Positions 21,184 to 21,561 of a stretch of DNA of 64,000 nt are shown here, in pieces (within the stretch, counting starts at the first letter, position 1; each line of letters starts with the position of its first letter). The translations under genes were made by a program, and so were the position numbers. Under the pieces are notes generated by a model. It was not told where the DNA came from, did no database searches, and saw nothing but the letters and a program-made list of their open reading frames with translations. Location: the sequence record MW250786. One strand, given 5' to 3'. The stretch is from Escherichia phage UPEC06.

Positions 21184-21561
21184 ATGTGGCGAGATGTATT
21201 TGGGGACGTAATGAATAATAAAGACCAAGGTAATGCAGGAGAGGCGTTTGCCATCTATCATTACACCTCATCAGGCCACAAGGTGTCAAAGCCGTTGTTT
21301 GAAAACTGCCCATACGACCTTATCGTTGATAAAGACGGTTGTTTGTTAAGGGTACAAGTTAAAACATCGCGTGTCAAAGCGCCAAGTGGAAGGTATGAGG
21401 TTTCTTTGAGGACCAACGGTGGTAACCGAAGTGGTATAGGAAAGAGCAAAAATATCTCAAGCTCGGAAGTAGACCTACTTTTCGTTCTTATTGAAGACGG
21501 GAGGTATTTTGAAATCCCTTGCTCAGAGGTAGATGGTCAGACTTGCGTGACCGTAGGATAA
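21184..21561 (+). CDS. putative PD-(D/E)xK nuclease (Hjc/VRR-NUC-like)
   Basis: GNAGEAFA ... PYDLIVDKDG ... LRVQVKTS fits a Glu ... Asp ... (E/Q)xK arrangement; embedded in the tRNA cluster. Confidence 0.4.
   Translation: MWRDVFGDVMNNKDQGNAGEAFAIYHYTSSGHKVSKPLFENCPYDLIVDKDGCLLRVQVKTSRVKAPSGRYEVSLRTNGGNRSGIGKSKNISSSEVDLLFVLIEDGRYFEIPCSEVDGQTCVTVG

What the first reader, a model, noticed from the sequence alone, without database searches (positions are those of the whole stretch)
21184..21561. Small PD-(D/E)xK nuclease gene embedded in the tRNA cluster
The ORF has a spacing consistent with Hjc/VRR-NUC-type nucleases (GEAF, DLIVDKDG, VQVKT) and ends two nucleotides before tRNA-Tyr. It may be a freestanding homing-type endonuclease, or could be involved in tRNA processing or repair.
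Basis: partly seen in the sequence, partly recalled or inferred. Interest (0 to 1): 0.5.

Follow-up and report, generated by a model that had tools for sequence, protein, structure and literature searches.

The report
Homing endonuclease gene beside phage tRNA-Tyr
This small gene is an intact phage relative of I-Ssp6803I, the one studied restriction-enzyme-like homing endonuclease. It appears to be a selfish DNA-cutting gene that has written itself, together with its own tRNA-Tyr gene, over the tRNA-Tyr gene of related phages.

Summary
The ORF is real. It is a PD-(D/E)xK nuclease, but of the I-Ssp6803I / PDDEXK_5 family rather than Hjc or VRR-NUC: Pfam PF11645 E=2e-21, PDB 2OST E=4e-8, and a predicted fold matching 2OST at TM 0.80-0.83. 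D36, Q49 and K51 are invariant.

The protein most likely starts at ATG 21211 (116 aa), not 21184. The first nine codons of the mechanical ORF are leader sequence plus GGGGACGT. Those eight bases are the first eight of the tRNA-Tyr gene that occupies this position in relatives lacking the ORF (phages A73 and phiTE).

Comparative evidence fits a free-standing homing endonuclease gene:
- Over 150 related phages have no ORF here.
- The closest relative, LTH01, carries a copy with a 291-nt internal deletion.
- A second backbone (L012) has the ORF at the same junction.
- In Klebsiella phage K54 versus Proteus phage Mydo, with 99.4-99.7% identical flanks, a 65%-identical homologue plus a tRNA-Tyr exactly replaces Mydo's different tRNA-Tyr.

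dN/dS is 0.07. 55 of 57 non-redundant viral homologue loci lie within 1.5 kb of tRNA genes, and some homologues sit inside tRNA anticodon loops with no ribozyme.

No group I intron is present, and a tRNA-processing role is not supported. Cleavage activity and target site are untested.

The parts
21211..21561 (+). Homing endonuclease gene, 116 codons plus TAA; I-Ssp6803I / PDDEXK_5 family
   Evidence: Pfam PF11645 E=1.9e-21. PDB 2OST E=3.6e-8. AlphaFold model with pLDDT 88 has 2OST as top PDB hit at TM 0.80-0.83. Homologues are 114-119 aa and start at this Met. dN/dS is 0.07 against L012.
21316..21363 (+). Codons of the invariant active-site motif: D36 (21316-21318), D40 (21328-21330), Q49 (21355-21357), K51 (21361-21363)
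   Evidence: D36, Q49 and K51 are invariant and D40 nearly invariant in the 33-sequence alignment, which includes I-Ssp6803I (YDLVFD...VQVK). Codon positions were read from the sequence.
21184..21210 (+). Upstream extension of the mechanical ORF (MWRDVFGDV); probably untranslated leader
   Evidence: No homologue has matching residues. In L012 this stretch is absent and the gene is called from the downstream ATG. It is retained in A73, which has no endonuclease gene.
21203..21210 (+). GGGGACGT: 5' scar of a 'type-2' tRNA-Tyr gene (its nucleotides 1-8); also serves as an SD-like sequence for the endonuclease gene
   Evidence: In A73 the same bases, in the same flanking sequence, are the first 8 nt of its tRNA-Tyr (L003 1703-1784). 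phiTE tRNA-Tyr starts GGGGACGTGGCAGAG. L012 has GGGGACGTG directly before its ATG on a different backbone.
21563..21649 (+). tRNA-Tyr(GTA), 'type 1', physically linked to the endonuclease gene (1-nt gap); takes the place of the type-2 tRNA-Tyr of ORF-less relatives
   Evidence: ARAGORN. Its sequence differs from the A73/phiTE tRNA-Tyr in the acceptor, D and variable arms. The same ORF-plus-type-1-tRNA-Tyr linkage is seen in L012 and K54.
21209..21499 (+). Segment deleted in the closest relative, LTH01 (291 nt, in frame, GACG microhomology); removes D36, Q49 and K51
   Evidence: Alignment and BLAST of the window against L002.
21100..21202 (+). Spacer between the structured RNA and the tRNA scar; present in the window, LTH01 and A73, absent in L012 and REC. 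Its presence or absence does not track that of the endonuclease gene.
   Evidence: Its resemblance to a tRNA-Tyr 5' half is not significant.
20526..22130 (+). Probable transcription unit: promoter-like site 20526-20554, ORF 20576-20956, structured RNA, endonuclease gene, tRNAs, terminator-like hairpin 22109-22130
   Evidence: Consensus scan only; weak evidence.

Best explanation
The gene encodes a free-standing, intron-less homing endonuclease of the I-Ssp6803I / PDDEXK_5 family in a Vequintavirinae-like E. coli myophage.

Proposed mechanism, with the status of each step marked:
1. During mixed infection the protein cuts the tRNA-Tyr gene region of a related phage that lacks the gene. This is inferred by analogy with I-Ssp6803I, which cuts a tRNA-fMet gene, and with T4 SegB.
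2. The break is repaired from the endonuclease-carrying genome, using the near-identical sequences upstream of the tRNA 5' end and downstream of its CCA end. This is inferred.
3. As a result the recipient's tRNA-Tyr gene body is overwritten by a cassette of 'endonuclease gene + a different tRNA-Tyr gene'. The swap itself is shown by comparing alleles.
4. The linked tRNA-Tyr keeps tRNA-Tyr function. It differs in sequence from the replaced allele, so it presumably escapes cleavage. This is inferred.
5. The eight bases GGGGACGT in front of the gene are the scar of the overwritten tRNA-Tyr. This is shown.
6. The gene then follows the usual homing-endonuclease life cycle. It is intact and under purifying selection here, internally deleted in LTH01, and absent in most relatives. 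This is shown.
For: Family and fold:
- PF11645 at 77 bits.
- 2OST (I-Ssp6803I) at E=3.6e-8 by sequence; TM 0.80-0.83, E=9e-9 by structure.
- PADLOC 'HEase' model at 7.6e-11.
- D36, Q49 and K51 invariant across 33 sequences including I-Ssp6803I.

Presence/absence among relatives:
- Of 193 related phage records, only LTH01 covers at least 80% of the 2.1-kb region.
- REC-type phages have the structured RNA followed directly by tRNA-Tyr, with no ORF.
- tblastn finds no intact close copy in 50,697 phage records; the best intact hit is 65% identical, in K54.

Breakpoints:
- Window and A73 are 98.6% identical up to 21209. Similarity returns (90%) from 21622, in the T arm, and the 3' flank is identical after the tRNA's CCA end. 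Between these points A73 has only a different tRNA-Tyr, whose first 8 nt are the window's GGGGACGT.
- L012 carries the cassette (91.6% identical) at the same GGGGACGTG junction, on a backbone only 81% identical upstream.
- phiTE confirms GGGGACGTG as a genuine tRNA-Tyr 5' end.

Independent second pair: K54 and Mydo have 99.4-99.7% identical flanks. Mydo's tRNA-Tyr is replaced, from nt 1 to the CCA end, by a 65%-identical homologue plus a type-1 tRNA-Tyr.

Decay and selection:
- LTH01 has a 291-nt in-frame deletion that removes the active site.
- dN/dS = 0.07.

Family context:
- Homologues sit directly before tRNA genes in phages of Mycobacterium, Vibrio, Acinetobacter, Pseudomonas, Bacillus and E. 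coli.
- 55 of 57 non-redundant IMG/VR loci have a tRNA within 1.5 kb; in 28 a tRNA starts within 20 nt of the stop codon (10 Tyr, 7 Ser).
- In L014, L023, L022 and L071 the ORF lies inside a tRNA gene at the anticodon loop.

Precedents:
- I-Ssp6803I targets a 23-bp pseudopalindrome (PMC3384342).
- PF11645 genes lie in tRNA-fMet introns (PMC13011429).
- SegB is a free-standing homing endonuclease in the T4 tRNA cluster that recognises a tRNA TpsiC motif (PMC2330249).
Against: - No cleavage, target site or biased inheritance has been shown for this protein or any phage homologue.
- The direction of the A73/window difference cannot be proved. A73 could have lost the cassette by acquiring a phiTE-like tRNA-Tyr through short-homology recombination.
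- Insertion points differ among relatives: tRNA nt 1, nt 8/9, the anticodon loop, or 6-8 nt upstream of the tRNA. One fixed target position is therefore not established.
- Homologues 77% identical (L105, L106) sit beside tRNA-Tyr genes of the types I proposed as targets. The idea that the D arm is the recognition site is therefore weak.
- A stop codon tightly abutting a tRNA is partly a general property of ORFs in these clusters. Control ORFs gave 28 of 71 within 20 nt, against 28 of 45 for the endonuclease genes, p=0.02.
- More distant family members in T7-like phages are not next to tRNAs.
Confidence: 0.75

Rival explanations
1. The gene is a domesticated PD-(D/E)xK nuclease that serves the phage, for example in recombination or repair, host DNA degradation, or exclusion of competing phages. 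On this view it is no longer a mobile selfish gene and sits in the tRNA cluster only because that region tolerates insertions.
For: Purifying selection is strong (dN/dS 0.07). Other endonuclease genes (HNH) also accumulate in phage tRNA clusters (PMC5966550). Other ORFs in these clusters also abut tRNAs.
Against: The gene is absent from nearly all close relatives and deleted in the closest one, so it is dispensable. The same cassette occurs on a diverged backbone at the same junction. The allele swaps are bounded exactly by a tRNA gene in two independent pairs. These are signatures of mobility, not of a core function.
Confidence: 0.1
2. The gene is an intact but functionally spent homing endonuclease gene. 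The ORF survives, but the enzyme no longer has a cleavable target among co-circulating phages and is on its way to decay.
For: The closest relative has already lost the active site by deletion. The A73 group may represent loss rather than naivety.
Against: All invariant residues are present. dN/dS is 0.07 over dS 0.47. Phages with a type-2 tRNA-Tyr (A73, W70, A7_1, A5-4) exist as potential recipients.
Confidence: 0.1
3. The protein acts on RNA. It would process or repair tRNA precursors, or excise its own ORF from interrupted tRNA transcripts.
For: The gene is co-located and probably co-transcribed with tRNAs. In some relatives the ORF lies in the anticodon loop of tRNA genes whose stems are all still complementary, with no ribozyme.
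Against: The protein resembles no RNA-processing family. Its closest characterised relative is a DNA endonuclease. Other interrupted tRNAs in relatives are visibly decayed (L013, L071, L084), as expected for dead genes. In the window no split tRNA remains, and relatives without the ORF have normal tRNA-Tyr genes.
Confidence: 0.03
4. The ORF is encoded by a group I intron, like I-Ssp6803I itself.
For: The characterised family member and other PF11645 genes lie in group I introns of tRNA-fMet (PMC13011429).
Against: Rfam finds no intron model at E<=1 in window 19500-22600 or in six related loci. Only about 10 nt lie between the tRNA scar and the start codon, and 1 nt between the stop codon and the next tRNA, which leaves no room for a ribozyme. 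What follows the ORF is a complete tRNA-Tyr of a different sequence type, not the remainder of the interrupted type-2 gene.
Confidence: 0.01

Closest known systems
I-Ssp6803I (PDB 2OST; Pfam PF11645 PDDEXK_5), the group-I-intron homing endonuclease of the Synechocystis tRNA-fMet gene
   Same: It is a homologous protein: E=3.6e-8 by sequence, about 27% identity, TM 0.80-0.83 by structure. It has the same D...QxK active-site variant, a similar small size, and the same class of genomic target (tRNA genes). Some phage relatives are even inserted at the anticodon loop.
   Different: The window gene is not inside an intron. It is in a phage rather than a cyanobacterial chromosome. It is associated with tRNA-Tyr (and tRNA-Ser in relatives) rather than tRNA-fMet. 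It travels with a replacement tRNA gene instead of relying on splicing to preserve the host gene. At 116 aa against about 150 aa, it lacks the C-terminal extension. Tetramer formation and the 23-bp pseudopalindromic target are untested.
T4 SegB, the free-standing GIY-YIG homing endonuclease in the T4 tRNA gene cluster (PMC2330249)
   Same: It has the same genetic logic. It is an intron-less endonuclease gene embedded among phage tRNA genes, absent from close relatives. It cuts within tRNA gene sequence and drags neighbouring tRNA genes into the recipient by co-conversion.
   Different: The fold is unrelated (GIY-YIG versus PD-(D/E)xK). SegB's activity and biased inheritance are demonstrated experimentally; here they are only inferred.
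Stand-alone PDDEXK_5 homing endonuclease genes listed in jumbo gut ('Jug') phages (PMC12880540), and the PADLOC 'HEase' model
   Same: They belong to the same Pfam family, are phage-encoded, and are annotated as free-standing.
   Different: Those are catalogue entries without insertion-site analysis. No link to tRNA genes or to tRNA allele replacement is described there.
Archaeal Hjc / VRR-NUC nucleases
   Same: They share the PD-(D/E)xK core fold and a similar size.
   Different: They are only distant structural neighbours (Foldseek E about 4e-3 to 4e-2, TM 0.5-0.6) with no Pfam match. Hjc resolves four-way junctions and is not a mobile gene.

Membership tests
I-Ssp6803I / PDDEXK_5 (PF11645) endonucleases | Match to the family profile above the curated threshold | tested here: met
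   77 bits against a 26.1-bit gathering cut-off, E=1.9e-21, residues 10-115 of the 125-aa ORF.
I-Ssp6803I / PDDEXK_5 (PF11645) endonucleases | Sequence and fold similarity to the solved I-Ssp6803I structure | tested here: met
   phmmer E=3.6e-8 over 97 residues. The AlphaFold model (pLDDT 88, pTM 0.81) has 2OST chains A-D as its top four PDB hits, TM 0.70-0.83.
I-Ssp6803I / PDDEXK_5 (PF11645) endonucleases | Conserved active-site residues (Asp ... Gln-x-Lys variant of PD-(D/E)xK) | tested here: met
   D36, Q49 and K51 are invariant in 33 aligned sequences including I-Ssp6803I; P28, Y35 and N72 are also invariant.
I-Ssp6803I / PDDEXK_5 (PF11645) endonucleases | Site-specific double-strand DNA cleavage of a long pseudopalindromic target by a tetramer | not testable with these tools
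   This needs protein biochemistry. These properties are known only for I-Ssp6803I (PMC3384342).
Intron-encoded homing endonucleases (group I intron ORFs) | The ORF lies within a self-splicing intron that interrupts the target gene | tested here: not met
   Rfam finds no intron model at E<=1. Only 1 nt follows the ORF before the next tRNA, and about 10 nt precede it after the tRNA scar.
Free-standing phage homing endonuclease genes (seg/mob type, 'intronless homing') | Presence/absence polymorphism among closely related genomes with conserved flanks | tested here: met
   Window versus A73 (98.6% identical up to the junction; 90% from the T arm and identical after the tRNA 3' end). K54 versus Mydo (99.4-99.7% identical flanks). 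The ORF is absent from REC-type phages.
Free-standing phage homing endonuclease genes (seg/mob type, 'intronless homing') | Same insertion junction on different backbones; cassette more similar than its flanks | tested here: met
   In L012 the cassette is 91.6% identical and the upstream flank 81.4%. The junction GGGGACGT(G) is the same although the 102-nt spacer is missing.
Free-standing phage homing endonuclease genes (seg/mob type, 'intronless homing') | Degenerate copies in some lineages (the homing-endonuclease life cycle) | tested here: met
   LTH01 has a 291-nt in-frame internal deletion that removes the catalytic residues.
Free-standing phage homing endonuclease genes (seg/mob type, 'intronless homing') | Cleavage of the endonuclease-less allele near the insertion site, and endonuclease-dependent biased inheritance in crosses | not testable with these tools
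   This needs enzyme assays and phage crosses. The six K54 'rec' phages all carry the gene but are uninformative, because K54 is their major parent (bioRxiv 10.1101/2024.10.29.620800).
Hjc / VRR-NUC nucleases | Profile match, or best structural match, to Hjc or VRR-NUC; conserved Glu in helix 1 | tested here: not met
   Pfam gives no hit other than PF11645 at E<=10. Hjc hits are weak (E>=3.6e-3, TM 0.45-0.61). The Glu of GEAF is not conserved.
tRNA-processing or RNA-repair enzymes | Homology to a known RNA-processing family, and conservation together with the tRNAs it would serve | tested here: not met
   No Pfam or NCBIfam hit of that kind. The gene is missing or deleted in relatives that keep intact tRNA-Tyr and the rest of the cluster.

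The most novel reading that the evidence does not exclude
In some relatives (L014, L023) the same kind of ORF fills the anticodon loop of a tRNA gene. All four stems of that tRNA are still perfectly complementary, and no ribozyme is present. The most novel reading is that such ORF-only insertions are not dead ends. They would be removed from the tRNA precursor by a protein-dependent route, for example cleavage by the encoded PD-(D/E)xK protein followed by RNA ligation. That would be a bacterial or phage counterpart of protein-spliced tRNA introns, and the window's gene would belong to that clade.
Probability: 0.03. Interest if true: 0.9.

Novelty: new variant of a known kind. Interest (0 to 1): 0.5.

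Why it matters
I-Ssp6803I has been treated as a near-unique case: a restriction-fold homing endonuclease carried by an intron in a cyanobacterial tRNA gene. [quoted passage not shown]

This window and its relatives show that the family is widespread in phages. It comprises about 1,400 clusters at 50% identity. Phages of Proteobacteria, Actinobacteria and Firmicutes carry it. It remains tied to tRNA genes even though it has dispensed with the intron.

The two clean allele pairs suggest a concrete mechanism for tRNA gene turnover in phage tRNA clusters. An endonuclease gene carries a spare tRNA with it and overwrites the resident allele.

This can be tested directly with available phages (A73, Mydo, K54). 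It also offers new long-site PD-(D/E)xK enzymes with natural specificity variants.

It is a solid comparative-genomics finding rather than a conceptual surprise. SegB of T4 and HNH genes of T5-like phages and mycobacteriophages already established that homing endonucleases live in, and reshape, phage tRNA clusters.

Tried and rejected
1. Group I intron. Rfam at E<=1 over window 19500-22600 and over six related loci gave no intron model. ARAGORN with introns allowed found no intron-containing tRNA around the ORF in the window or in L014.

2. The 102-nt spacer 21100-21202 as an older tRNA-Tyr 5' half. The resemblance seen by eye in the MAFFT alignment is not significant: 171 of 2000 shuffles score at least as well. 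Rejected.

3. The D arm (TGGCAGARYGGT, shared by type-2 and type-3 tRNA-Tyr) as the recognition site. This is weakened because 77%-identical homologues sit next to tRNA-Tyr genes with that D arm. Kept only as a guess.

4. 'Stop codon abutting the tRNA 5' end' as a family-specific signature. It is only partly specific. Control ORFs in the same loci also abut tRNAs: 28 of 71 within 20 nt and 11 of 71 within -1..6 nt, against 28 of 45 and 21 of 45 for the endonuclease genes.

5. The six K54 recombinant phages as evidence for biased inheritance. They are uninformative, since K54 is the major parent of all of them.

6. Similarity of the neighbouring structured RNA to the phiTE pseudo-ToxI repeat (shared GCTACCTTAA). 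Not significant: 186 of 2000 shuffles.

7. An endonuclease-free relative of L014, to define its insertion site. None exists in the phage collection.

8. T5-like SelmaRatti as a third allele pair. The slot is occupied by other genes in relatives and is too complex to resolve quickly.

9. The Zhao et al. 2007 paper on I-Ssp6803I could not be read. Its residue numbering and target details are therefore taken only from the review PMC3384342.

Full report
**What is there.** The window holds an ORF at 21184..21561 (+, 125 aa) with the strings GEAF, DLIVDKDG and VQVKT. ARAGORN places tRNA-Tyr(GTA) at 21563-21649, one nucleotide after the TAA stop. tRNA-Met lies upstream, and tRNA-Pro, Gly and Gln lie downstream. 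A large terminase gene follows at 22937. The best DNA matches are Vequintavirinae-like E. coli myophages: LTH01, A73, W70, A7_1 and A5-4.

**What the protein is.**
- It matches Pfam PF11645 (PDDEXK_5) at 77 bits (cut-off 26.1, E=1.9e-21).
- It matches phrog_5018, of unknown function, at 2e-27, and the PADLOC 'HEase' model at 7.6e-11.
- Among all PDB sequences the only significant hit is 2OST, I-Ssp6803I, at E=3.6e-8 over 97 residues.
- An AlphaFold model built on 32 homologues (pLDDT 88, pTM 0.81) has the four 2OST chains as its top PDB matches (TM 0.70-0.83, E down to 9e-9).
- Hjc, EcoRV, NhoI and SPARDA nuclease domains follow only at E>=3.6e-3.

In an alignment of 32 homologues plus I-Ssp6803I, the invariant positions (116-aa numbering) are G7, P28, Y35, D36, Q49, K51 and N72; D40 is nearly invariant. 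The motif is D...Q-x-K, as in I-Ssp6803I. The Glu of GEAF is not conserved.

**Start codon.** Homologues are 114-119 aa and align from Met10 of the mechanical ORF. The 92%-identical copy in contig L012 has no upstream ATG and is called at 116 aa. I therefore place the start at ATG 21211, preceded by an SD-like GGGGA.

**The gene is functional, or was until recently.** Against the L012 copy, dS=0.47 and dN=0.034, so dN/dS=0.07.

**Comparison with relatives: the key evidence.**

(a) Most related phages have no ORF here. In REC and over 150 other records, a conserved ~120-nt element (window 20980-21099) is followed within about 15 nt by a tRNA-Tyr.

(b) LTH01, the closest relative, has the same locus with a 291-nt in-frame deletion. 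Window 21209-21499 is missing, with a GACG microhomology at the junction. The deletion removes the active site.

(c) A73 and its three sisters are 98.6% identical to the window up to 21209, then diverge. Similarity returns (90%) at 21622, in the T arm, and the 3' flank is identical after the CCA end.
- In between, A73 has only a tRNA-Tyr of different sequence ('type 2', L003 1703-1784).
- The last eight shared bases, GGGGACGT (window 21203-21210), are nucleotides 1-8 of that tRNA.
- phiTE, a Certrevirus without the ORF, has the same tRNA-Tyr starting GGGGACGTGGCAGAG.

(d) L012, a metagenomic contig, carries the ORF plus tRNA-Tyr cassette at 91.6% identity. Its backbone is only 81% identical upstream and lacks the 102-nt spacer 21100-21201. 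Its ORF is nevertheless preceded by the same GGGGACGTG.

The gene therefore sits at one specific junction inside a type-2 tRNA-Tyr gene on two backbones. It is followed by a complete tRNA-Tyr of another type ('type 1', like that of REC and K54).

(e) An independent pair gives the same picture. Klebsiella phage K54lambda1.1.1 carries a 65%-identical homologue whose stop codon directly abuts a type-1 tRNA-Tyr.
- Proteus phage Mydo is 99.4% and 99.7% identical on the two flanks.
- Mydo has instead a single, different tRNA-Tyr ('type 3').
- The heterologous block begins at tRNA nucleotide 1-2 and ends at the CCA end.

In both pairs, the unit exchanged is 'tRNA-Tyr gene body' against 'endonuclease gene + another tRNA-Tyr gene body'.

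**Family context.** tblastn finds homologues in 88 phage records from very different groups. In each tRNA-encoding phage I inspected, the gene lies in the tRNA cluster directly upstream of a tRNA:

| Phage | Flanking genes (upstream \| ORF \| downstream) | Gap from stop to tRNA |
|---|---|---|
| Mycobacterium phage Wilder | tRNA-Gly \| ORF \| tRNA-Lys | 11 nt |
| Vibrio phage River4 | tRNA-Asp \| ORF \| tRNA-Pro | 0 |
| Acinetobacter phage CP14 | tRNA-Met \| ORF \| tRNA-Tyr | 1 |
| Pseudomonas phage KoPa-4 | tRNA-Ser \| ORF \| tRNA-Leu | overlap |
| Bacillus phage BCP78 | tRNA-Asn \| ORF \| tRNA-Ser | 13-14 nt |
| T5-like SelmaRatti | ORF \| tRNA-Ser | 2 |

In T7-like phages a more distant member lies between the DNA polymerase gene and gene 5.5, with no tRNA nearby.

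In IMG/VR, 55 of 57 non-redundant loci have a tRNA within 1.5 kb. In 28 of them a tRNA starts within 20 nt of the stop codon: 10 Tyr, 7 Ser. A control shows that tight abutment is partly generic to ORFs in these clusters: 28 of 71 control ORFs are within 20 nt, and 11 of 71 against 21 of 45 are within -1..6 nt. I therefore do not treat the 1-nt gap as diagnostic.

A full HMMER scan finds 1,414 clusters (50% identity) at E<=1e-3 and 411 at E<=1e-10.

**ORFs inside tRNA genes.** In several relatives the ORF lies inside a class-II tRNA gene.
- L014 (69% identical protein) has GCGAGAT-TA-CCAGAGTGGCCAAATGG-A-CATGA, then SD + ORF + TAA, then TCATG, a variable arm, GGAAG-TTCGAAT-CTTCC and ATCTCGC-ACCA. 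The whole anticodon loop is replaced, and every stem is still complementary.
- L023 interrupts a tRNA-Ser(UGA)-like gene just after the anticodon loop.
- In L022 the stop codon is fused to the 3' strand of a tRNA-Tyr anticodon stem.
- L071, L013 and L084 show decayed halves.
- Rfam finds no group I intron in any of these loci.

The family thus keeps returning to the place where the I-Ssp6803I intron sits, but without a ribozyme. The decayed examples, and the 8-nt scar in the window, suggest that the interrupted tRNA genes are simply dead and erode.

**Mechanism proposed.**
- Shown: family membership, intact motif, purifying selection, presence/absence, a shared junction inside a tRNA-Tyr gene, the allele swap bounded by the tRNA gene, and a decayed copy in the nearest relative.
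- Inferred: the protein cuts the tRNA-Tyr gene region of phages lacking it. Break repair then copies the cassette from the donor, using the flanks outside the tRNA. The linked tRNA-Tyr both restores function and escapes cutting because its sequence differs.

The precedents are:
- I-Ssp6803I, a tetramer with a 23-bp pseudopalindromic target (PMC3384342).
- PF11645 genes in tRNA-fMet introns (PMC13011429).
- T4 SegB, a free-standing GIY-YIG enzyme in the tRNA cluster. It recognises the tRNA TpsiC motif and is inherited at nearly 100% in crosses (PMC2330249).

tRNA stems make natural pseudopalindromes in DNA, which would suit a symmetric oligomer. That last point is my own reasoning.

**Rivals.**
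- A domesticated nuclease is unlikely, given that the gene is dispensable and shows signs of mobility.
- A spent homing endonuclease gene cannot be excluded, but dN/dS and the intact motif argue against it.
- An RNA-level role has no homology support, and the gene is absent where the tRNAs are intact.
- An intron is excluded by lack of space and of any ribozyme signal.

**Novelty.** The enzyme family is known, as is the idea of free-standing homing endonucleases in phage tRNA clusters. Stand-alone PDDEXK_5 genes have been counted in jumbo phages (PMC12880540).

I did not find three things described in the papers searched:
- the consistent tie of phage PDDEXK_5 genes to tRNA genes, especially Tyr and Ser;
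- their insertion into tRNA genes without an intron;
- the 'endonuclease + spare tRNA' cassette that overwrites a resident tRNA-Tyr allele.

I rate the finding a new variant of a known kind, of moderate interest.

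Noticed in passing
window 20980-21099 (+): A ~120-nt strongly structured RNA candidate lies just upstream of the finding. 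Its MFE is -42.6 kcal/mol, z=-5.05, with no shuffle folding as well. Its hairpin loops include a UUCG and a GCGA sequence. It has no Rfam match. It is conserved (75-98%) in 177 phage records spanning Vequintavirinae, Stephanstirmvirinae and T5-like phages. In relatives it exactly fills the gap between tRNA-Ser and tRNA-Lys or tRNA-Tyr. 7 of 39 consensus pairs show compensatory changes. It is possibly a stable RNA cut out of the tRNA precursor, like T4 species 1 and 2 RNAs (my own knowledge).
   Followed up: partly
L014 44-484, L023 1431-1904; also L022, L071, L084, L013: Homologous endonuclease ORFs sit inside class-II tRNA genes (Tyr-like and Ser-like), at or next to the anticodon loop, with no ribozyme. 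In L014 and L023 all tRNA stems are still perfectly complementary. In the other loci the halves are decayed.
   Followed up: partly
window 21654-21727 and 21735-21815 (+): Two tRNA-like sequences lie between tRNA-Tyr and tRNA-Pro. The first has acceptor TTCCGT/ACGGAA plus ACCA and a CTGGTTCGAATCCAG T arm. The second has a CTCCAAA (Trp-like) loop. Neither ARAGORN nor Rfam calls them. The first is about 90% conserved in A73. They may be degenerate or unusual tRNAs.
   Followed up: no
window 20220-20298 (+): Rfam's tRNA model scores 35.8 bits here (above the 29-bit gathering score), but ARAGORN reports nothing.
   Followed up: no
window 21549-21557 and 21572-21580 (+): The 9-nt direct repeat GACCGTAGG occurs in the last codons of the endonuclease ORF and again in the D arm of the adjacent tRNA-Tyr, 23 nt apart. 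It could be chance, or a trace of an older junction with a type-1 tRNA-Tyr.
   Followed up: no
window 20576-20956 (+): A 126-aa ORF heads the block, preceded by the best promoter-like site (20526-20554) and followed by a GC hairpin. It is conserved in LTH01, A73, phiTE (phiTE_202), PcCB7V and Mydo. It has no NCBIfam hit, and its function is unknown.
   Followed up: partly
L016 (phiTE) 1290-1348 versus the window: In phiTE, the published pseudo-ToxI RNA (an antitoxin mimic) lies about 300 nt downstream of the corresponding tRNA-Tyr. The window has no significant similarity to it; the only shared string is a 10-mer, which 186 of 2000 shuffles match or beat.
   Followed up: yes
L004 (K54lambda1.1.1) 2006-2821: The public annotation fuses the endonuclease ORF into an 816-nt 'CDS' flagged as a pseudogene. 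That CDS runs across tRNA-Tyr, Ile, Gly and Glu, and the record annotates no tRNAs in this stretch. This is an annotation artefact.
   Followed up: no
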